The translations under genes were made by a program, and so were the position numbers. 64,000 bases of DNA from Candidatus Nomurabacteria bacterium (GTDB lineage Bacteria > Patescibacteriota > Minisyncoccia > Phycocordibacterales > UBA5272), in the NCBI GenBank assembly GCA_037134695.1, contig JBAXLU010000001.1, forward strand, positions 11,551-75,550, read 5' to 3'. The notes under the pieces were generated by a model. That model saw nothing but the letters and a program-made list of their open reading frames with translations, searched no databases and was not told the origin of the DNA. Positions 8,661-50,521 of the stretch are shown here, one piece after another; positions within the stretch are counted from its first letter, which is position 1; each line of letters begins with the position of its first letter.

Positions 8661-8696
8661 TACTAATAACTAATAACCAATAACTAAAAACTACCC
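8661..8696 (+). promoter_or_regulatory. conserved AACTAnTAACCAnTAACTA...AACTACCC leader motif upstream of rpsB
   Basis: TACTAATAACTAATAACCAATAACTAAAAACTACCC; near-identical motifs precede tsf, typA and the 22371 gene. Confidence 0.4.
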
Positions 8697-8742
8697 TAAT
8701 GTGGCACGAGTAAATGTTTTTTATTAGTTTACTTAATTAAAT

Positions 8743-9420
8743 ATGTCAAAAATAACAAAAGAAGCTTTAGCTTCTGCTGGTTTACAATACGGCTACTCAC
8801 GTACTCGTCGTCACCCATCAGTAAAGCCATTTATAGAAGGTAATCACAATGGTGTTGATTTTATTAACCTTGATTCAACAGCCCAGCAATTAAACGATGC
8901 TATTACTTTCCTTAAGTCTGTACAAGGCGCAGGTAAGACTATTCTTTTCGTTGGAGTAAAGCCAGAAATTCGCCAAATGATAAAAGAAGTTGCTCTATCA
9001 TTAAATGCTCCTTATGTAGCAGAAAGATTTATCGGTGGTACTCTTACTAATTTTCCACAAATCAAGAAGCGTATTGAAAAACTTCATGACCTATTGAAGA
9101 AAAAAGAAACAGGGGAGCTTGCTGTTTATACAAAGAAAGAACAGCTTTTGATTCAGCGTGATATCGATCGTTTGGACCGTGACTTCGGAGGTATTTCTTC
9201 ATTAACAAATATACCTGCAGCAATTGTAATGATTGACTCTCGCCATGAAGATATGTGTGTTAAGGAAGCTAAAATTCTCCACATTCCTGTGGTTGCGCTT
9301 TGTAATACTGACTGTACAATAGAAGGTATCGAATACCCAATACTCGGAAATGATGGATCAGTAAGTTCTGTTCGATTTGTTCTTGAATCAATCAAGAACG
9401 CTCTTCAAATAGAAGCGTAA
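8743..9420 (+). CDS. rpsB: 30S ribosomal protein S2
   Basis: 225-aa ORF, GLQYGYSRTRRHPSVKPFI...GVDFINLDST is canonical S2. Confidence 0.9.
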   Translation: MSKITKEALASAGLQYGYSRTRRHPSVKPFIEGNHNGVDFINLDSTAQQLNDAITFLKSVQGAGKTILFVGVKPEIRQMIKEVALSLNAPYVAERFIGGTLTNFPQIKKRIEKLHDLLKKKETGELAVYTKKEQLLIQRDIDRLDRDFGGISSLTNIPAAIVMIDSRHEDMCVKEAKILHIPVVALCNTDCTIEGIEYPILGNDGSVSSVRFVLESIKNALQIEA

Positions 9421-9445: not shown

Positions 9446-9483
9446 TTTACTATCAACTATTAACCAGTAACTATCAACTACCC
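9446..9483 (+). promoter_or_regulatory. conserved leader motif upstream of tsf
   Basis: TTTACTATCAACTATTAACCAGTAACTATCAACTACCC ends 2 nt before the ATG; no GGAGG Shine-Dalgarno. Confidence 0.4.
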
Positions 9484-9485
9484 AT

Positions 9486-19580: not shown

Positions 19581-21752
<2,172 letters not shown>

Positions 21753-21756
21753 AAAT

Positions 21757-21790
21757 AAAAATCACCGCATATGCGGTGATTTTTGTTTTT
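21757..21790. terminator. bidirectional terminator between gyrB and a hemerythrin gene
   Basis: perfect palindrome AAAATCACCGCAT|ATGCGGTGATTTT flanked by A/T runs; a near-copy sits at 22885-22921. Confidence 0.6.
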
Positions 21791-22214
21791 ACTTCAAGCC
21801 GTGCTCATTAAAAAATAGAGAGTACTTTTTATCCATTGAAAGAATATGTTCAAATAGCCAGTTTCCAGCAAATAAACCACTTTCTTTTAGTGTGTCTTTT
21901 AAATCATAATTTCTATTACTTACCTTAGAAATTAATTCAGCAGATTTTACTCTAAAGTGATCATGTGATTTTATATGATCTTCCATATGTGGAACATTGT
22001 ATTTTTCAAAATACTCTTCTTCTGTACCTAAATGATACTTCGCATAATCACCCAATCTATTGATGGCGAGTACCGCTTCTGCTTGTGTAAATTTTATTTT
22101 TCCTTCAGATAATTCTAATAAATTGTTACATAAATTAAAAAACTCTTTATGTTGATTGTCTATTATTTCAATTCCAACAGAGTATTCTTCTGTCCAAATA
22201 AGTTCTTCGTACAT
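21789..22214 (-). CDS. bacteriohemerythrin-like protein, paralog 1
   Basis: 141-aa ORF; WTEEYSVGIEIIDNQHKEFF plus downstream H..E, HF, H..D metal ligands; ~85% identical to 22921-23346. Confidence 0.7.
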   Translation of the reverse strand: MYEELIWTEEYSVGIEIIDNQHKEFFNLCNNLLELSEGKIKFTQAEAVLAINRLGDYAKYHLGTEEEYFEKYNVPHMEDHIKSHDHFRVKSAELISKVSNRNYDLKDTLKESGLFAGNWLFEHILSMDKKYSLFFNEHGLK

Positions 22215-22316
22215 TTTAAAAAGTATAAATTAATATGATTATCAGTATAGCACCGGGTTTAATTTATAAATAGGGCTCAGTTATTAGAGATTTGTTTAAA
22301 TATGAAAAATAAACTT

Positions 22317-22370
22317 TTTGTATTAAACTATAATCTATTAACCAGTAACTACTAACTGGTAACTATTCTC
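22317..22370 (+). promoter_or_regulatory. conserved leader motif upstream of the SLOG-like gene
   Basis: TTTGTATTAAACTATAATCTATTAACCAGTAACTACTAACTGGTAACTATTCTC directly before the ATG; same motif as the rpsB, tsf and typA leaders. Confidence 0.4.
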
Positions 22371-22880
22371 ATGAAATGGATCATTTTTACTGGGACTTGG
22401 AAAAATACAAATGAAGAAGTAGAGCATGATGTTCGCGAGTCTGTTCGTGAAGTTTTGTCACGTGGGGACGGCGTCATTACTGGAGGAGCACTTGGGGTAG
22501 ATTTATTTTGTATGGATGAAGTTTTGAAAATAAATCCAGAGTGTACACATCTGAGAGTTATCCTTCCTTCTAAATTAGATATTTATATAAAACATTTTTA
22601 TACAAGACTTGTTGACAATGTTATAACAAAAAAGCAATTTGAATTTTTGGAGACAACTCTAAAAAACATTCAAAGAGTAAATCCATCAGCAATTTTAGAA
22701 ATGCATTTTAAAACAATAGAACAGAATGAATACAATGAACGTGATGCTGAAGAAGTTAAATATGGTGATGCACTACACGCCTTCCAGGTAAATAATTCAT
22801 CCGGTACACAACATACCATAGACGCTGGGATCATAAAAGGAATACCAATTTCATTACATAAGAAATATACAATAAATTAG
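22371..22880 (+). CDS. SLOG-superfamily (DprA/LOG-like Rossmann) protein, function unknown
   Basis: 169-aa ORF; ITGGALGVDLFCMDEVL resembles the DprA G-x-A-x-G-(I/V)-D nucleotide-binding loop; no other domain. Confidence 0.4.
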   Translation: MKWIIFTGTWKNTNEEVEHDVRESVREVLSRGDGVITGGALGVDLFCMDEVLKINPECTHLRVILPSKLDIYIKHFYTRLVDNVITKKQFEFLETTLKNIQRVNPSAILEMHFKTIEQNEYNERDAEEVKYGDALHAFQVNNSSGTQHTIDAGIIKGIPISLHKKYTIN

Positions 22881-22884
22881 AAAA

Positions 22885-22921
22885 AATAAAAATCACCGCA
22901 TATACGGTGATTTTTATTTTT
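22885..22921. terminator. bidirectional terminator (near-copy of 21757-21790)
   Basis: AAAAATCACCG-CATATA-CGGTGATTTTTATTTTTT. Confidence 0.5.
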
Positions 22922-23346
22922 TACTTCAAACCTTGTTCATTAAAAAACGGAGAGTATTTTTTATCCATAGACATAATATGTTCAAATAGCCAGTTTCCAG
23001 CAAATAAACCACTTTCCTTGAGTGTATCTTTTAAATCGTAATCTTTATTACTTACTTTAGCAATTAATTCAGAAGATTTTATTTTAAAATGATTATGTGC
23101 TTTTATATGATCTTCCATATTTTGTACATTATATTTTTCAAAATATTCCTCTTCTGTTCCTAAATGATATTTTGCGTAATCACCTAATCTGTTAATAGCA
23201 AGGACAGCTTCTGCTTGTGTAAATTTTGTTTTTCCTTCAGCTAATTCTAATAAATTGTTACATAAATTAAAAAACTCTTTATGTTGATTATCTATTATTT
23301 CAATACCAACAGAATATTCTTCTGTCCAAATAAGTTCATCGTACAT
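22921..23346 (-). CDS. bacteriohemerythrin-like protein, paralog 2
   Basis: 141-aa ORF, same motifs as paralog 1; part of a ~520-bp direct duplication. Confidence 0.7.
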   Translation of the reverse strand: MYDELIWTEEYSVGIEIIDNQHKEFFNLCNNLLELAEGKTKFTQAEAVLAINRLGDYAKYHLGTEEEYFEKYNVQNMEDHIKAHNHFKIKSSELIAKVSNKDYDLKDTLKESGLFAGNWLFEHIMSMDKKYSPFFNEQGLK

Positions 23347-23497
23347 TTTTAAAAAGTATAAATTAATATGATAAATAGTATAGCATTGGTATTTGCTTAA
23401 AAATAATTTAGTGTATGTTATATGTAGTAATTAAAGTTAATTTGACTTTATTTTAAATTATTGTTAGATTAGAGTCCTTGTTTTAAGGAGATATAAG

Positions 23498-23620
23498 ATG
23501 CCACAAAATCAAACATCGGCAGCTGTAACGATTCCGGTTTATACACAACCACAGCAGCAGCCAGACCGTTACAGTCAGGAGCAACAACAGCAACAGCAAC
23601 AGCAACAACAGCAGATGTGA
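23498..23620 (+). CDS. possible 40-aa Gln-rich small protein
   Basis: strong SD (TAAGGAG, 7-nt spacer) before ATG; MPQNQTSAAVTIPVYTQPQQQPDRYSQEQQQQQQQQQQQM; followed by hairpin AACCCGCGACA-GTTAA-TGTCGCGGGTT + T-run (23653-23696); not in the ORF track (<60 aa). Confidence 0.3.
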   Translation: MPQNQTSAAVTIPVYTQPQQQPDRYSQEQQQQQQQQQQQM

Positions 23621-23708
23621 TCGCCTTCGGTCAATTGCATCGCAACCACAGGAACCCGCGACAGTTAATGTCGCGGGTTAATTATTTCTTGTTTTCCATA
23701 AGAAAGAG

Positions 23709-25469
23709 TTATTTTTTACCCTTAATTTCCTCTGATAATTTTATAATTAAATCCTCAATTTTCATTTCTCCAATTTTACCATCCACTCTGTGTTCAAGTG
23801 TGACTGTACCATTTGTAATTTCGGCATCTCCAATAACTGCCCAATATGGAGTCTTCATTTCACGAGTATTACGAATCTTCTTTCCAAGTCCTTCACGAGA
23901 ATTATCAATTTTTACACGAATGTCAGAATTTTGTAATTTTTCAAAAACAGTATTTGCATATTCAGCGTGTTTATCAGCAATCGGAAGAATTGTAATTTGA
24001 TTTGGTGAAAGCCAAAGAGGGAAGTTGCCTGCGAAGTGTTCTATCATTACACCCATAAATCTTTCTATTGATCCAGAAATGGCTCGGTGTATAACAACTG
24101 GTCTTTCTTTCTTACCTTCAGCATTTATGAAATTCAAATCAAATCTTTCTGGTAAATTGAAATCACATTGAATTGTAGCTAGTTGCCACTCACGACCAAT
24201 TGCATCTTTAAACATAAAGTCTAACTTTGGTCCATAAAAAGCAGCTTCACCTTCGACTCTTCTATAATTTAGTCCATTAGCTTTTGCTGCTTCTTCAAGT
24301 GAACTTTCAGCCAAATCCCAAACCTCATCTGTTCCAAGATATTTACTTTTATCAGTCCCCCGAACTGACCATGATACCCAATAGCCGTCCATCATTCCCA
24401 TCGTTGTATAAAATTCTTTTATAATACCAACAATAGTTGAAACTTCTTGTTTAACTTGGTCTTGTGTACAGAAAAGGTGACCATCGTCTTGTGTAATAGC
24501 ACGCACACGAAGTAATCCACCTAATTGGCCAGACTTTTCATCTCTATAAACTGTAGCTGGCTCGAAATATCGTACAGGCATATCACGATAAGAGAATTGA
24601 TTATCTGCAAAGATTTGCATATGATGTGGGCAATTCATTGGCTTCATAATAAATTTATCTTCTTTTCCTTGTACACGGAAAAGTTCATCACCAAATTTTG
24701 CCGCATGACCAGAGGTTACATATAGAGCTTCTTTTGCAATATGTGGAGTCCAAACACGTGAATAACCTTTCTTAGAATGTAGTGACCATAAATAATCTTC
24801 AATTTCTTTTCTAATTATCATTCCGTTTGGTTGCATGAGTGGAAGACCTGCACCAATAAGAGGGGACACAGTGAAAAGTTTTAATTGAGCACCGATAATT
24901 CTGTGATCTCTTTTCTTAGCTTCCTCTTGTTGTAAAATATAGGCATCCAATTCTTCTTTTGTTTCAAAAGCTAGACCATATATACGTGTGAGCATTGGCT
25001 TTGTTTCATCTCCTCGCCAATAAGCACCAGCCAAATGACTAAGTATAAAACAATTAGTAGGAATTTCTTTCGTATTTTCTACATGTGGACCTTCACATAA
25101 ATCATAAAAATCCTCTCCCGTATGATAAAGAGTCACGTCCTGGCCTTCTTTTTCAATACCATCGATTAATTCTAATTTGAATGGATTAACTGCAAAAAGT
25201 GTACGAGCTTGGTCTGTAGAAACAGTTTCAACTTTGAAGTCTAAATTACGTTTTAGAATTTCACGCATTGTATCTTCTACTTTTTTTAAATCATCTACCC
25301 CAATTTTTACCCCTGGAGCAAAGTCGAGGTCATAGTAAAAACCAGTATCAGTTACAGGACCAATTGTAGGTAAAGCATGAGGAAAATTATGTTTAATGGC
25401 CATTAAAAGCACATGGGCAAGTGAATGGCGAACTTTAAATAATTGGTTTGGAGCTTCTTTTTGTGACAT
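23709..25469 (-). CDS. thrS: threonine--tRNA ligase (lacking N-terminal TGS domain)
   Basis: 586-aa ORF; editing-domain HSLAHVL motif, class II catalytic core, C-terminal anticodon-binding domain. Confidence 0.85.
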   Translation of the reverse strand: MSQKEAPNQLFKVRHSLAHVLLMAIKHNFPHALPTIGPVTDTGFYYDLDFAPGVKIGVDDLKKVEDTMREILKRNLDFKVETVSTDQARTLFAVNPFKLELIDGIEKEGQDVTLYHTGEDFYDLCEGPHVENTKEIPTNCFILSHLAGAYWRGDETKPMLTRIYGLAFETKEELDAYILQQEEAKKRDHRIIGAQLKLFTVSPLIGAGLPLMQPNGMIIRKEIEDYLWSLHSKKGYSRVWTPHIAKEALYVTSGHAAKFGDELFRVQGKEDKFIMKPMNCPHHMQIFADNQFSYRDMPVRYFEPATVYRDEKSGQLGGLLRVRAITQDDGHLFCTQDQVKQEVSTIVGIIKEFYTTMGMMDGYWVSWSVRGTDKSKYLGTDEVWDLAESSLEEAAKANGLNYRRVEGEAAFYGPKLDFMFKDAIGREWQLATIQCDFNLPERFDLNFINAEGKKERPVVIHRAISGSIERFMGVMIEHFAGNFPLWLSPNQITILPIADKHAEYANTVFEKLQNSDIRVKIDNSREGLGKKIRNTREMKTPYWAVIGDAEITNGTVTLEHRVDGKIGEMKIEDLIIKLSEEIKGKK

Positions 25470-40779: not shown

Positions 40780-40828
40780 CTGTATTTAAACTATTAACCA
40801 GTAGCTAGTAACTACCAACCATTCAACC
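40780..40828 (+). promoter_or_regulatory. conserved leader motif upstream of typA
   Basis: CTGTATTTAAACTATTAACCAGTAGCTAGTAACTACCAACCATTCAACC immediately before the ATG. Confidence 0.4.
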
Positions 40829-45238: not shown

Positions 45239-45384
45239 TCTAAACTGGATAATCTGTAAAAGAAAATGCCACCCGTTAGGGTGGCATTCTCATGTGTTCT
45301 TCATCTATAAGCCGAGTTCTGTATTTGTATAGACATTTATCTTGTCTCTACATTGCTGTAAAGATCTAGCGACACTCTCCCAAC

Positions 45385-45515
45385 GCTCCGCATTGGGCGC
45401 AGAAGTACGCAGACTTAACGCTGACTGACGCAGAAGAATGCAATTTGTATTTTTCTGCGACCTTCTGCGTTCGTTCAGCGATGTTCTGCGCTTAATGCGA
45501 AGCATTAAGAGCACG
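45385..45515. repeat. imperfect ~110-bp palindrome built from ACGCAGAAG/ACGCGGAAG units (family D)
   Basis: left arm GCGCAGAAGTACGCAGACTTAACGCTGACTGACGCAGAAGAATGC, right arm is its near reverse complement; same units occur in frame in rplY, pheS, pheT and gyrB; ORFs 45305-45592(-) and 45438-45698(+) here are probably not genes. Confidence 0.6.
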
Positions 45516-45762
45516 GTCTTGCACACACGTATGTATTTAGCCGTTTCAGCCGGACTAAACCGGATCGTTTCTGTTCGCAACACAATGGTCACCCATGATG
45601 GGAATTACCCACTACGCTTGTTATGTAAACATAACTATGTGCTCGGACTTTCCTCACGATATTACTATCGCGCGTCTACCCAACAAAGAACTTTATAACG
45701 ATACTACATTTTTACTAGTATGTCAAAGTTTTTATTTAGTATATGTTATAATATATATTAAT

Positions 45763-47037
45763 ATGATTTTCAAGAACTCAGTATTGCTCGCCATATTTTC
45801 AATGCTTTCGGTATTGCTTGGTATTGTTCGCGACAGACTTTTATCTACCCACGTTGGCGTTGGTCCAATTCTCGATATTTACAATGCATCCTTTAGACTT
45901 CCTGATTTTCTTTATGCAATGTCTTTAGCTTTTGTAACAGCAGGAACTGTTGTTCCTTTTTTAACTATTGAAAATAAATCAGGAAATGTTATTGATTCAC
46001 GTCACAGACTTTCATCCATCTCACTTTTCTTTGCAGGGGTCGCATCGCTTGTTGGTTTATTTATAGTGGTGACAATACCATTTTATGCACATTTAATCGT
46101 CCCTGGATTTACAGCGGAACAGACTGTAACATTTATTAATGTTACAAGAATATTAATGATACAACCGATTTTGCTCGGTATCACATCTTTGATTTCATGT
46201 TTCGCACAAATGAAGAATCACTTTGTTCTTTACGGTATTGCGCCACTTGGTTATTCTCTCGGAATCATCGGTGGCATTATTTATCTTTATCCTATTTATG
46301 GAGTGCACGGATTAATTTATGGAGTAATTATTGGCGCTATTATTTCTTTTTGTATTCAGTTGTATTCATTACGAGGAACAAAATTTATTGAAGTACTTCC
46401 ATATTTTTCTTTCAAACATATTAAAGAACTTTTCAGACTTTCATTTCCACGTACTGGTGTAAATGTTTTGACACAATTAAGAACTATTTTCTTCACAGCT
46501 TTTGCAACGACATTAGGACCGGGAGCTCTTTCTAGTTATTTATTTGCACAAAGAATTACTGATGCTGTGACACAAATTATTCAACAAAGTATTACAACCG
46601 CAAGTTTGCCAGTTCTCTCAAAAGAGTTTGTGGAAAATAGAATACATGAATATAGACGTGTTGTGAAGCAGTATGTTATTATTCTCGGTGCTATTGGATT
46701 TTTTGCATCGGTTACAATTTATTCTTTGCAAGATATTTTTATCACAATTTTATATGGGAATACTCCCGCACATGATTTGATTGCTTTCTTTTTGGTTGGA
46801 TTTTTGATTGCATTACCACTTCAGATGATGATTGGCTATTATTCTATTTCACTTTATTCTGCCAAAGACACAAAAAGTGTTTTTTATTCAAACTTTATTT
46901 CTACATTAGTTGCAGTTTTTGCTTGTTATTCAACACAACAATTAGGTAATATAAGTCTGGTTTATGGAGTCATTGCCATGACCGTTTCTAATTTTGTAGT
47001 TATTTCTCTTTTGTATACCAAGAAAAGACTACTTTAA
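45763..47037 (+). CDS. murJ: lipid II flippase MurJ (MOP superfamily)
   Basis: N-terminus from 45763 (MIFKNSVLLAIFSMLSVLLGIVRDRLLSTHVGVGPILDIYNASFRLPDFL) matches MurJ; multi-pass membrane protein; the ORF-track start 45595 is probably a 5' over-extension into the repeat region. Confidence 0.7.
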   Translation: MIFKNSVLLAIFSMLSVLLGIVRDRLLSTHVGVGPILDIYNASFRLPDFLYAMSLAFVTAGTVVPFLTIENKSGNVIDSRHRLSSISLFFAGVASLVGLFIVVTIPFYAHLIVPGFTAEQTVTFINVTRILMIQPILLGITSLISCFAQMKNHFVLYGIAPLGYSLGIIGGIIYLYPIYGVHGLIYGVIIGAIISFCIQLYSLRGTKFIEVLPYFSFKHIKELFRLSFPRTGVNVLTQLRTIFFTAFATTLGPGALSSYLFAQRITDAVTQIIQQSITTASLPVLSKEFVENRIHEYRRVVKQYVIILGAIGFFASVTIYSLQDIFITILYGNTPAHDLIAFFLVGFLIALPLQMMIGYYSISLYSAKDTKSVFYSNFISTLVAVFACYSTQQLGNISLVYGVIAMTVSNFVVISLLYTKKRLL

Positions 47038-50280: not shown

Positions 50281-50521
50281 AAATGCAGAACTAACGCGGA
50301 ATAATACAAAAAATAAAGGGTGACTCCTACGAAGCCACCCTGTATTTTCCATAAACTAGTAACCAATAACTATTTAATTAAGGCGATTAGTGAAAAACCA
50401 ACCATACCAACAATAGCTAGTATTGAAATTATGGCCCAGATCTTATGAAGAAGTTTTCTATTTTTTGATGTGAAAAGCATATATGTTTTTTTTGATATGT
50501 TAGAATAATACTAACAATAAT

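What the first reader, a model, noticed from the sequence alone, without database searches (positions are those of the whole stretch)
21753..23400. ~520-bp direct duplication (terminator + hemerythrin gene + upstream region) flanking a SLOG/DprA-like gene that carries the 'ribosomal' leader motif
The two hemerythrin-like ORFs (21789-22214 and 22921-23346, both minus strand) are ~85% identical in protein sequence. Their bidirectional terminators and upstream regions are also near-identical (AAAGTATAAATTAATATGAT...AGTATAGCA). The ~510-bp gene between them encodes a small Rossmann protein whose ITGGALGVD loop resembles the SLOG nucleotide-binding loop (DprA/LOG/YpsA superfamily). It is preceded by the same AACTATTAACCAGTAACTA leader found before rpsB, tsf and typA. 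The arrangement looks like a gene captured between duplicated units. Homologous recombination between the repeats would delete or amplify it. An O2-binding hemerythrin pair around a nucleotide-binding SLOG protein could be a sensory pairing. It has not been described as far as I know.
Basis: partly seen in the sequence, partly recalled or inferred. Interest (0 to 1): 0.55.

Follow-up and report, generated by a model that had tools for sequence, protein, structure and literature searches.

The report
Duplicated hemerythrin cassette around resident SLOG gene
A Nomurabacteria genome carries two diverged copies of a self-contained oxygen-binding hemerythrin gene on either side of a conserved small DprA-like gene that normally sits there alone; this looks like ordinary local gene duplication, not a new sensory system.

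Summary
A ~503-bp unit occurs twice in direct orientation, 1132 bp apart (21751-22252 and 22882-23385). Each unit holds a palindromic bidirectional terminator, a 141-aa bacteriohemerythrin gene and its 5'UTR with a TGnTATACT box. The copies are 89% identical in DNA and in protein. Both keep all seven diiron ligands. dN/dS is 0.09 and dS is 0.54, so the duplication is old and both copies are maintained.

The "captured gene" reading is backwards. In relatives whose GyrB is 92-100% identical, the order is gyrB, SLOG, a variable small gene, then thrS, with no hemerythrin. The SLOG promoter and heptamer leader are orthologous in those relatives. So SLOG is the resident gene and the hemerythrin cassettes are lineage-specific newcomers.

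The "sensory pairing" is not conserved. None of 70 SLOG loci has a hemerythrin nearby, and none of 80 hemerythrin loci has a SLOG gene nearby.

The leader shared with rpsB, tsf and typA is confirmed. Overall the finding is ordinary, with a mildly interesting uncharacterised SLOG family.

The parts
19659..21752 (+). gyrB (697 aa). It is the conserved left anchor of the interval, and its stop codon abuts repeat copy A.
   Evidence: ORF list. GyrB Pfam domains are recorded on the orthologous genes. tblastn identity to relatives is 92-100%.
21751..21790 (.). Bidirectional intrinsic terminator of copy A. The hairpin AAAAATCACCGCATATGCGGTGATTTTT lies at 21757-21784 and is flanked by an A-run and a T-run. 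It serves the convergent genes gyrB and hemA.
   Evidence: The sequence occurs only twice in the window and nowhere in the 168 fetched loci.
21789..22214 (-). hemA, a 141-aa single-domain bacteriohemerythrin.
   Evidence: NF033749 scores 89.9 bits (cutoff 84), TIGR02481 96.8 bits, and PF01814 has E=2.2e-12. The ligands H22, H61, E65, H80, H84, H123 and D128 are invariant in the family alignment.
22215..22252 (-). hemA 5'UTR plus an extended -10-like box (TGCTATACT = reverse complement of 22244-22252). This is the right end of repeat copy A.
   Evidence: Read from the sequence, the alignment and the boundary test. Promoter function is inferred.
22293..22370 (+). SLOG promoter region and Shine-Dalgarno-less heptamer-repeat leader: TTTTTGTATTAAACTA followed by (NNAACYA) repeats. 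It is orthologous to the region upstream of SLOG in close relatives.
   Evidence: No significant RNA fold in the rpsB, tsf and typA leaders; weak hairpin upstream of SLOG (z=-2.2). No Rfam hit.
22371..22880 (+). A 169-aa stand-alone SLOG-fold protein, DprA/YpsA-like. It is the conserved resident gene of the gyrB-thrS interval.
   Evidence: Synteny is shown. dN/dS against orthologs is 0.11-0.16.
22882..22921 (.). Bidirectional terminator of copy B. It is 95% identical to copy A's terminator and serves the convergent genes SLOG and hemB.
22921..23346 (-). hemB, a 141-aa bacteriohemerythrin and paralog of hemA. The two are 89% identical in protein, with dS 0.54 and dN/dS 0.09.
23347..23385 (-). 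hemB 5'UTR plus the TGCTATACT box (reverse complement of 23377-23385). This is the right end of repeat copy B.
23709..25469 (-). thrS (586 aa), the conserved right anchor of the interval.
   Evidence: ThrRS Pfam domains are recorded on the orthologs. Identity to relatives is 94-96%.

Best explanation
This is a lineage-specific, non-tandem segmental duplication of a minimal, self-sufficient bacteriohemerythrin expression cassette. The cassette runs from an extended -10 promoter through the 5'UTR and CDS to a palindromic bidirectional terminator, and is about 503 bp long.

The two copies lie in the two intergenic slots on either side of a resident gene. That gene is a conserved stand-alone DprA/YpsA-like SLOG protein. 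In this clade of Nomurabacteria it natively sits between gyrB and thrS.

Both hemerythrin copies are transcribed from their own promoters and are kept by purifying selection. By inference they make diiron O2-binding proteins that buffer or scavenge oxygen in an oxygen-sensitive fermentative cell. Two copies would give extra dosage or mild subfunctionalisation.

The SLOG gene is expressed independently, from its own promoter and a Shine-Dalgarno-less heptamer-repeat leader that it shares with rpsB, tsf and typA. By inference it binds a nucleotide or ssDNA ligand in the canonical SLOG pocket (GxD loop and S-x-G-T loop) and acts in DNA or nucleotide housekeeping alongside gyrase. It is not functionally coupled to the hemerythrins.

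The direct repeats can recombine. Gene conversion is suggested, and deletion of SLOG plus one copy is possible.
For: Shown:
- The repeat boundaries, and the absence of any homology beyond them.
- The hemerythrin family thresholds are passed and all seven metal ligands are present.
- dN/dS is 0.09 and dS is 0.54 between the copies. That dS is lower than the gyrB/thrS dS of 0.69-0.93 to the nearest hemerythrin-free relatives. The duplication therefore postdates that split.
- The order gyrB, SLOG, variable small gene (SnoaL, a 133-aa, 172-aa or 66-aa ORF, or a methyltransferase), thrS is seen in eight independent close relatives, with no hemerythrin.
- The ~80 nt upstream of SLOG, covering the promoter and heptamer leader, aligns with the orthologous upstream regions.
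- The hemA ortholog (96% identical to A, 87% to B) lies convergent with gyrB in two other assemblies.
- No co-occurrence is found in 0 of 70 and 0 of 80 loci.
- The SLOG fold is supported. PF02481 matches 39 of 51 family members, mostly below threshold, and distant members pass the threshold.
- Across Patescibacteria the SLOG gene follows gyrB on the same strand in 24 of 70 loci, and in at least 10 the gap is under 60 nt. A UDG gene follows SLOG in 9 loci.
- Tandem or multiple hemerythrin genes are common elsewhere (PMC12607906).
Against: - No reads are available, so the two-copy structure rests on one metagenome assembly.
- Which of the two copies came first is not resolved, nor is the route (one dispersed copy, or a tandem [SLOG+hem] duplication followed by loss).
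- Promoter activity, O2 binding and the SLOG ligand are all inferred.
- Both cassettes start exactly at the stop codon of the upstream convergent gene. This precision is not explained by a random insertion model.
- YpsA, a structural neighbour of the SLOG protein, is linked to oxidative-stress protection in B. subtilis (PMC6459960). A loose physiological link with hemerythrin therefore cannot be formally excluded in this one lineage.
Confidence: 0.8

Rival explanations
1. First reader's model. The SLOG gene was captured between two pre-existing duplicated hemerythrin units, and the three genes form an O2-responsive sensory or effector module.
Against: SLOG, with its promoter and leader, is the syntenic resident between gyrB and thrS in every close relative, and none of them carries a hemerythrin. 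None of 70 SLOG loci has a hemerythrin and none of 80 hemerythrin loci has a SLOG gene. The hemerythrin orthologs in two relatives' contigs appear without an adjacent SLOG gene.
Confidence: 0.04
2. Assembly artefact. The A-B-A layout is a chimeric path through strain variants in a metagenome graph. One variant would carry the hemerythrin next to gyrB and another would carry it next to thrS, so the true genomes would have a single copy.
For: The sequence is a MAG contig. The copies share exact stretches of 36-50 nt, which can confuse short-read assemblers. Relatives with an A-type hemerythrin next to gyrB and apparently no SLOG gene exist.
Against: The copies differ at 46 of 426 coding positions, with a coherent purifying-selection pattern. 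That pattern is not what collapsed or chimeric repeats produce. The hemA-upstream/SLOG-promoter junction would have to exist in some real genome anyway. The unique flanks on all four sides join cleanly, with no homology beyond the unit.
Confidence: 0.07
3. Same components, different route. A tandem duplication of the segment [SLOG + hemerythrin] gave SLOG-hem-SLOG-hem, and the first SLOG copy was then precisely lost. There was no single dispersed copy event.
For: The 1132-bp period of the repeat is compatible with a tandem unit of hem plus SLOG. Tandem hemerythrin arrays exist elsewhere.
Against: No remnant of a second SLOG gene or SLOG promoter is detectable. gyrB's stop codon is 36 nt from hemA's stop codon. 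Nothing beyond 23385 resembles the SLOG upstream region. This route needs two events, one of them precise.
Confidence: 0.15
4. The unit is a mobile gene cassette (integron-type cassette, MITE-like element or composite transposon) that inserted twice.
For: The unit is compact and self-contained, ends in a palindrome, and is present in two nearby sites.
Against: There are no terminal inverted repeats between the unit's ends, no target-site duplication, and no integrase or transposase among the neighbours. The palindrome is a perfect 12-bp stem with T-runs, typical of an intrinsic terminator and not of an attC site. The sequence is absent from the rest of the window and from 1.39 Mb of related loci.
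Confidence: 0.03

Closest known systems
Single-domain bacteriohemerythrins (NCBIfam NF033749, Pfam PF01814), which often occur as several paralogs per genome, for example the diverse bhr genes of Methylomonas denitrificans FJG1 (PMC12607906)
   Same: The length is about 140 aa. The full H-HxxxE-HxxxH-HxxxxD diiron ligand set is present. HMM scores are above the curated cut-offs. Paralogy by local duplication also occurs elsewhere, as tandem arrays of 2-5 genes in loci L128, L129 and L165.
   Different: Here the two copies are not tandem but bracket an unrelated resident gene. The host is a reduced-genome Patescibacterium. The nearest relative outside the 90% cluster of these proteins is only 57% identical.
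DprA/Smf Rossmann-fold domain (PF02481; PDB 3maj, 4ljk, 3uqz)
   Different: The protein is 169 aa with a single domain and has no SAM-like N-terminal or winged-helix C-terminal domain. The window protein scores 12.8 bits against a 29.6 cut-off for PF02481, and 19.8 against 191 for TIGR00732. ssDNA binding and RecA loading are untested.
YpsA (PF06908; PDB 2nx2), a stand-alone SLOG protein of Firmicutes involved in cell-division inhibition and oxidative-stress protection (PMC6459960)
   Different: The window protein has no PF06908 hit, and only 5 of 51 family members match, at E>=0.014. There is no gpsB, PRTase or NAD-salvage neighbour. The phylum is different.
ShosA / PsyrA, the DprA-like components of the Shosta and PsyrTA defence or toxin-antitoxin systems (PDB 8zva; PADLOC PDLC03961 and PDLC03927)
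   Different: The window protein has no PADLOC hit. There is no PRTase partner gene. The housekeeping synteny (gyrB, thrS) and purifying selection argue against a defence island.

Membership tests
Bacteriohemerythrin (NF033749 / PF01814) | Family HMM score above the curated cut-off | tested here: met
   NF033749 scores 89.9 and 92.2 bits against a cut-off of 84. TIGR02481 scores 96.8 and 99.0 against 51.75. PF01814 scores 48 and 50.5 against 25.3.
Bacteriohemerythrin (NF033749 / PF01814) | Seven diiron ligands: H, HxxxE, HxxxH, HxxxxD | tested here: met
   H22, H61/E65, H80/H84 and H123/D128 are present in both copies and invariant in the 11-sequence alignment.
Bacteriohemerythrin (NF033749 / PF01814) | Reversible O2 binding at the diiron site | not testable with these tools
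   This needs purified protein and spectroscopy.
SLOG superfamily (Smf/DprA-LOG Rossmannoid fold) | The Rossmannoid fold superposes on solved SLOG members | tested here: met
SLOG superfamily (Smf/DprA-LOG Rossmannoid fold) | A glycine-rich loop after strand 2 (GGxxGxD/E) and a second small-residue loop (S/G-x-G-T) that line the ligand pocket | tested here: met
   T37, G38, G39, A40, G42, V43 and D44, and N141, S143, G145 and T146, are invariant or nearly invariant in 51 family members.
DprA proper (PF02481 / TIGR00732) | Family HMM score above the gathering score | tested here: not met
   The window protein scores 12.8 bits against 29.6 for PF02481 and 19.8 against 191.15 for TIGR00732. 39 of 51 members match PF02481 at E<=0.1, mostly below threshold. 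Some distant fused members do pass, at 31.8-42.3 bits.
DprA proper (PF02481 / TIGR00732) | Multidomain architecture: the Rossmann fold plus an N-terminal SAM-like domain and/or a C-terminal winged-helix (DML1) domain | tested here: not met
   The protein is a single compact 169-aa domain. The family is overwhelmingly 165-175 aa.
DprA proper (PF02481 / TIGR00732) | ssDNA binding and RecA loading during transformation | not testable with these tools
   This needs biochemistry or genetics.
YpsA (PF06908) | Family HMM match, and gpsB, PRTase or NAD-salvage neighbourhoods | tested here: not met
   The window protein has no PF06908 hit, and 5 of 51 members match at E>=0.014. The recurrent neighbours are gyrB, thrS, a methyltransferase, a CAP-domain protein and UDG.
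LOG phosphoribohydrolase | PGGxGTxxE catalytic motif | tested here: not met
   The equivalent loop is N-x-S-x-G-T-Q-D-T. The position of the catalytic Glu is an invariant Thr, T149.
Shosta / PsyrTA defence system | ShosA/PsyrA HMM match plus an adjacent PRTase partner | tested here: not met
   The window protein has no PADLOC hit. There is no PRTase among the neighbours.
Mobile cassette (integron or transposon) | Terminal inverted repeats or attC, target-site duplication, and a recombinase nearby | tested here: not met

The most novel reading that the evidence does not exclude
The 169-aa protein represents a Patescibacteria-wide housekeeping "mini-DprA". It would be a stand-alone SLOG protein that works with DNA gyrase, and in some lineages with a uracil-DNA glycosylase or a methyltransferase, in handling imported or damaged DNA or nucleotides. 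In this clade it would be co-expressed with translation genes (rpsB, tsf, typA) through a previously undescribed Shine-Dalgarno-less heptamer-repeat (NNAACYA)n leader. The hemerythrin cassettes would be incidental neighbours.
Probability: 0.25. Interest if true: 0.5.

Novelty: new member of a known kind. Interest (0 to 1): 0.25.

Why it matters
The finding shows how a tiny, streamlined CPR/Patescibacteria genome still gains and keeps paralogs. A promoter-to-terminator hemerythrin cassette was copied into the two spacers around a housekeeping-linked gene, and both copies were retained under purifying selection. This hints that oxygen buffering matters to these fermentative epibionts.

The work also gives a fold and a family context (SLOG, DprA-like, gyrB-linked) to a protein that GenBank calls hypothetical and that is widespread in Patescibacteria. 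It documents a clade-specific Shine-Dalgarno-less leader shared with translation genes.

None of this overturns current understanding. The proposed hemerythrin-SLOG sensory pairing does not hold.

Tried and rejected
- **Rfam.** A scan of the whole window at gathering thresholds found only RNase P and five tRNAs. Nothing matched at the leader or the terminators.
- **Collection scans with hemA.** Scanning GTDB representative genomes and JGI metagenomes with hemA found no relative. I could therefore not obtain DNA for the two relatives' contigs that carry the hemA ortholog. The look-up of encoding contigs lists them without DNA.
- **The 298-aa ORF in the relative's contig.** I searched with the ThrRS C-terminal 298 aa to test whether the partial 298-aa ORF next to the relative's hemerythrin is thrS.
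- **Unavailable resources.** The afdb50 fold library was not available. The SLOG classification paper (Burroughs et al. 2015) is not in the held library.
- **Defence system.** There is no PADLOC hit, so a defence-system reading was rejected.
- **Mobile cassette.** No inverted repeats, target-site duplication or recombinase were found, and no other copies exist.
- **Larger ancestral duplication.** I looked for homology extending beyond the unit and found none.
- **Palindrome in the SLOG leader.** The ACCAGT...ACTGGT palindrome in the SLOG leader could have been an operator. It is absent from the orthologous leaders and folds only weakly (z=-2.2).
- **Literature.** Searches for hemerythrin or SLOG in Patescibacteria/CPR, and for Shine-Dalgarno usage in Patescibacteria, found nothing relevant.
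Full report

Yes. The repeat finder reports three co-linear direct-repeat segments with 1131-1133 nt spacing:
- the terminators, 21751-21790 vs 22882-22921 (95%);
- the gene bodies, 21780-22079 vs 22912-23211 (86% over 300 nt);
- the upstream regions, 22214-22272 vs 23347-23405.

A MAFFT alignment is continuous, with only two 1-nt indels inside the unit. It runs from the first base after the upstream stop codon to the string AGTATAGCA. Past 22252/23385 the similarity is no better than shuffled sequence: 213 of 1000 shuffles score as well. There is no homology to the left of the terminators either. The unit is therefore about 503 bp: 21751-22252 and 22882-23385.

Each unit has three parts:
- a perfect 12-bp palindromic hairpin, AAAAATCACCGCATATGCGGTGATTTTT, flanked by an A-run and a T-run, which makes a bidirectional intrinsic terminator;
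- a 141-codon minus-strand ORF;
- 38 nt of 5' leader ending in TGCTATACT, an extended -10-like box.

The terminator sequence occurs nowhere else in the window. It is also absent from the 1.39 Mb of related loci fetched later.

**2. The two flanking genes**

Both proteins pass the curated cut-offs for bacteriohemerythrin. NF033749 scores 89.9 and 92.2 bits against a cut-off of 84, and TIGR02481 and PF01814 are also passed. Both keep all seven diiron ligands: H22, H61, E65, H80, H84, H123 and D128.

The two proteins are 125/141 = 89% identical. A Nei-Gojobori analysis gives dS = 0.54, dN = 0.049 and dN/dS = 0.09. The duplication is therefore old, and both copies are under purifying selection.

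Divergence is uneven along the gene. The first 47 codons have pS 0.16 against 0.50 for the rest (Fisher p = 0.006). The adjoining leader is nearly identical between copies. A ~190-nt 5' tract has therefore been homogenised more recently, which suggests gene conversion, or it is constrained at the RNA level.

GenBank already annotates both genes as bacteriohemerythrin, as MEI6810451 and MEI6810453 in a Candidatus Nomurabacteria MAG.

**3. The middle gene**

The 169-aa protein belongs to a well-conserved family of 165-175-aa proteins that sources label "hypothetical". A word-indexed search found 130 hits. An exhaustive search found 390 cluster representatives at 50% identity. Wherever a name is given, it is essentially always Patescibacteria.

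Invariant motifs in the family are F-T-G-T-W, T-G-G-A-x-G-V-D, E50 and A-F-Q-V-N-x-S-x-G-T.

Several lines of evidence place it in the SLOG superfamily:
- The window protein itself gives only weak DprA hits: PF02481 E=0.066 and TIGR00732 E=3.7e-4.
- A family profile finds the Helicobacter pylori DprA Rossmann domain as the best PDB match, at E=3.4e-4 over residues 23-158.
- 39 of 51 members touch PF02481 at E<=0.1. Distant fused members pass its gathering score.
- An AlphaFold2 model built on the family alignment is very confident, with pLDDT 95.8 and pTM 0.90.

The protein is not a canonical DprA: it has a single domain and scores far below threshold. It is not YpsA: there is no PF06908 hit and the neighbours are different. 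It is not LOG: the catalytic Glu position is an invariant Thr. It is not a Shosta/PsyrTA component: there is no PADLOC hit and no PRTase partner.

**4. Who is the resident and who is the newcomer?**

I fetched genomic contexts for SLOG proteins that are 68-83% identical to the window's. Their flanking GyrB is 92-100% identical and their ThrRS is 94-96% identical. All of them show gyrB(+), SLOG(+), one variable small gene, then thrS(-), with no hemerythrin.

The variable small gene differs between relatives. It is a SnoaL-like protein in L001, L005 and L018, a 133-aa ORF in L017, a 172-aa ORF in L008, a 66-aa ORF in L014 and a methyltransferase in L016.

The ~80 nt upstream of the window's SLOG gene runs TTGTTTAAATATG...TTTTTGTATTAAACTA and is followed by heptamer repeats. 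It aligns with the regions upstream of the orthologs in L001, L005, L013 and L017.

SLOG is therefore vertically inherited at this spot. The hemerythrin cassettes occupy the gyrB-SLOG spacer (copy A) and the variable slot before thrS (copy B).

The hemA-hemB dS of 0.54 is smaller than the gyrB and thrS dS to those hemerythrin-free relatives, which is 0.69-0.93. This fits acquisition and duplication after that split. The "gene captured between duplicated units" reading is therefore reversed.

**5. Is hemerythrin plus SLOG a conserved pairing?**

No. A scan of GTDB species representatives with the SLOG family alignment returned 70 loci, essentially all Patescibacteria. None has a hemerythrin within 6 kb, either by tblastn or by a hemerythrin profile HMM.

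In the converse test, none of 80 metagenomic hemerythrin loci contains a SLOG family member. The nearest hemerythrin outside this protein's own cluster, P0122 at 57% identity, sits among unrelated genes.

Multiple hemerythrin genes in one place do occur elsewhere: a tandem pair in L128 and L129, and five in a row in L165. The literature also describes genomes with many bhr paralogs (PMC12607906).

**6. Recombination between the repeats**

The 90% cluster that holds hemA and hemB has two further members, from other assemblies. Both are 96% identical to copy A and 87% to copy B. Both lie convergent with gyrB, as copy A does.

On the 9.2-kb contig the hemerythrin is preceded, after a 347-nt gap, by a partial 298-aa ORF on the same strand. 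In the window, hemB is preceded by thrS on the same strand after 362 nt. That geometry fits a locus reading thrS, spacer, one hemerythrin, gyrB, with SLOG absent. This is the product expected from crossing-over between the two repeats within the homogenised 5' tract. The relative's protein is B-like at residue 3 and A-like from residue 36 onward.

This is inference only, for three reasons:
- No DNA was available for these contigs.
- Scans with hemA found nothing.
- My attempt to identify the 298-aa ORF by a ThrRS search was inconclusive.

**7. The leader**

The exact 14-mer TTAACCAGTAACTA occurs at 22338 and at 9460. Variants with 1-2 mismatches occur at 40794, 8673 and 50359. That is 5 hits against 0.99 expected. 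The downstream genes are EF-Ts, BipA/TypA, ribosomal protein S2 and an unknown 130-aa ORF.

The motif is really a run of three to five heptamers, NNAACYA, following a TTGTATT(T/A)AACTA box. A two-heptamer pattern gives 13 hits against 1.8 expected, and 12 of the 13 are on the + strand.

The rpsB, tsf and typA leaders lack a Shine-Dalgarno sequence and show no significant RNA structure. The SLOG leader also lacks a Shine-Dalgarno sequence but forms a weak hairpin (z = -2.2). None matches an Rfam family.

In 1.39 Mb of fetched loci, the pattern with three or more repeats appears only upstream of SLOG orthologs of the closest relatives, plus one other gene in L069. The motif is therefore specific to this clade, and conserved on this gene.

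**8. What does the SLOG protein do?**

This is inferred and my confidence is low. The evidence is contextual:
- Across the 70 loci the gene directly follows gyrB on the same strand in 24 cases. In at least 10 of these the gap is under 60 nt, which suggests an operon.
- A class-I SAM methyltransferase is adjacent in 14 loci.
- A UDG-superfamily gene follows immediately on the same strand in 9 loci.
- Rare fusions join the domain to a methyltransferase, an ASCH domain, a MazG-like domain or a Mur ligase.
- dN/dS against orthologs is 0.11-0.16. That is purifying selection, though the gene evolves several times faster than gyrB and thrS, whose values are 0.03-0.07.

My best guess is a ligand-binding or nucleotide-processing SLOG protein that acts in DNA or nucleotide housekeeping. 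It uses the GxD and S-x-G-T loops and the loop-1 tryptophan. The last two features are the ones highlighted for YpsA (PMC6459960).

**9. Verdict**

The sequence observation is confirmed and the fold prediction is correct. The evolutionary and functional interpretation is not. What is there is a lineage-specific duplication of a hemerythrin expression cassette around a resident, conserved, uncharacterised SLOG gene. The finding is ordinary in kind: a new member of known families. The SLOG family and the heptamer leader are modest leads for follow-up.

Noticed in passing
window 23442-23680 (+): There is a self-contained small gene between hemB and thrS. It has a TTGACT-17-TAGATT promoter-like site, a strong AAGGAG Shine-Dalgarno sequence, and a 40-codon ORF at 23498-23620 encoding the Gln-rich peptide MPQNQTSAAVTIPVYTQPQQQPDRYSQEQQQQQQQQQQQM. 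A GC-rich hairpin at 23653-23679 with a T-rich tail follows. It is absent from relatives L001 and L005, where a SnoaL gene abuts thrS.
   Followed up: no
window 8668-8742, 9455-9485, 22326-22370, 40789-40828, 50354-50375 (+): A clade-specific Shine-Dalgarno-less leader precedes rpsB, tsf, the SLOG gene, typA and an unknown ORF. It is made of 3-5 heptamer repeats (NNAACYA) after a TTGTATT(T/A)AACTA box. The rpsB, tsf and typA leaders are unstructured and the SLOG leader has a weak hairpin; none has an Rfam match. In 1.39 Mb of related loci it is found only upstream of SLOG orthologs of the closest relatives and one other gene (L069). Before rpsB the repeats are followed by two mini-ORFs (MWHE*, MFFISLLN*) ahead of the real start at 8743.
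   Followed up: partly
L019-L088 (70 GTDB Patescibacteria loci): The SLOG family has recurrent neighbours. gyrB lies directly upstream on the same strand in 24 loci. A class-I SAM methyltransferase is adjacent in 14 loci and a CAP-domain protein in 10. A UDG-superfamily glycosylase lies immediately downstream on the same strand in 9 loci. Distant members are fused to methyltransferase, ASCH, MazG-like or Mur-ligase domains.
   Followed up: partly
window 22371-22880 vs L001, L005, L013: The SLOG protein is only 67-83% identical between genomes whose GyrB and ThrRS are 92-97% identical. Its dN/dS is 0.11-0.15, against 0.03-0.07 for the flanking genes. Its dS is also higher (about 1.5 against 0.8 for L001 and L005), which hints at faster evolution or allele exchange at this gene.
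   Followed up: partly
L165:4120-6390; L128 and L129:5481-6420: Other metagenomic genomes carry tandem arrays of hemerythrin genes: five in a row in L165 and two in L128 and L129. Local hemerythrin amplification is therefore recurrent.
   Followed up: no
window 45292-45691 (-): RNase P RNA (bacterial class A) scores 104.1 bits, just above the gathering score of 100. The match overlaps the start of a listed ORF (45595-47037, +) on the opposite strand, which may be a spurious or mis-started ORF call.
   Followed up: no
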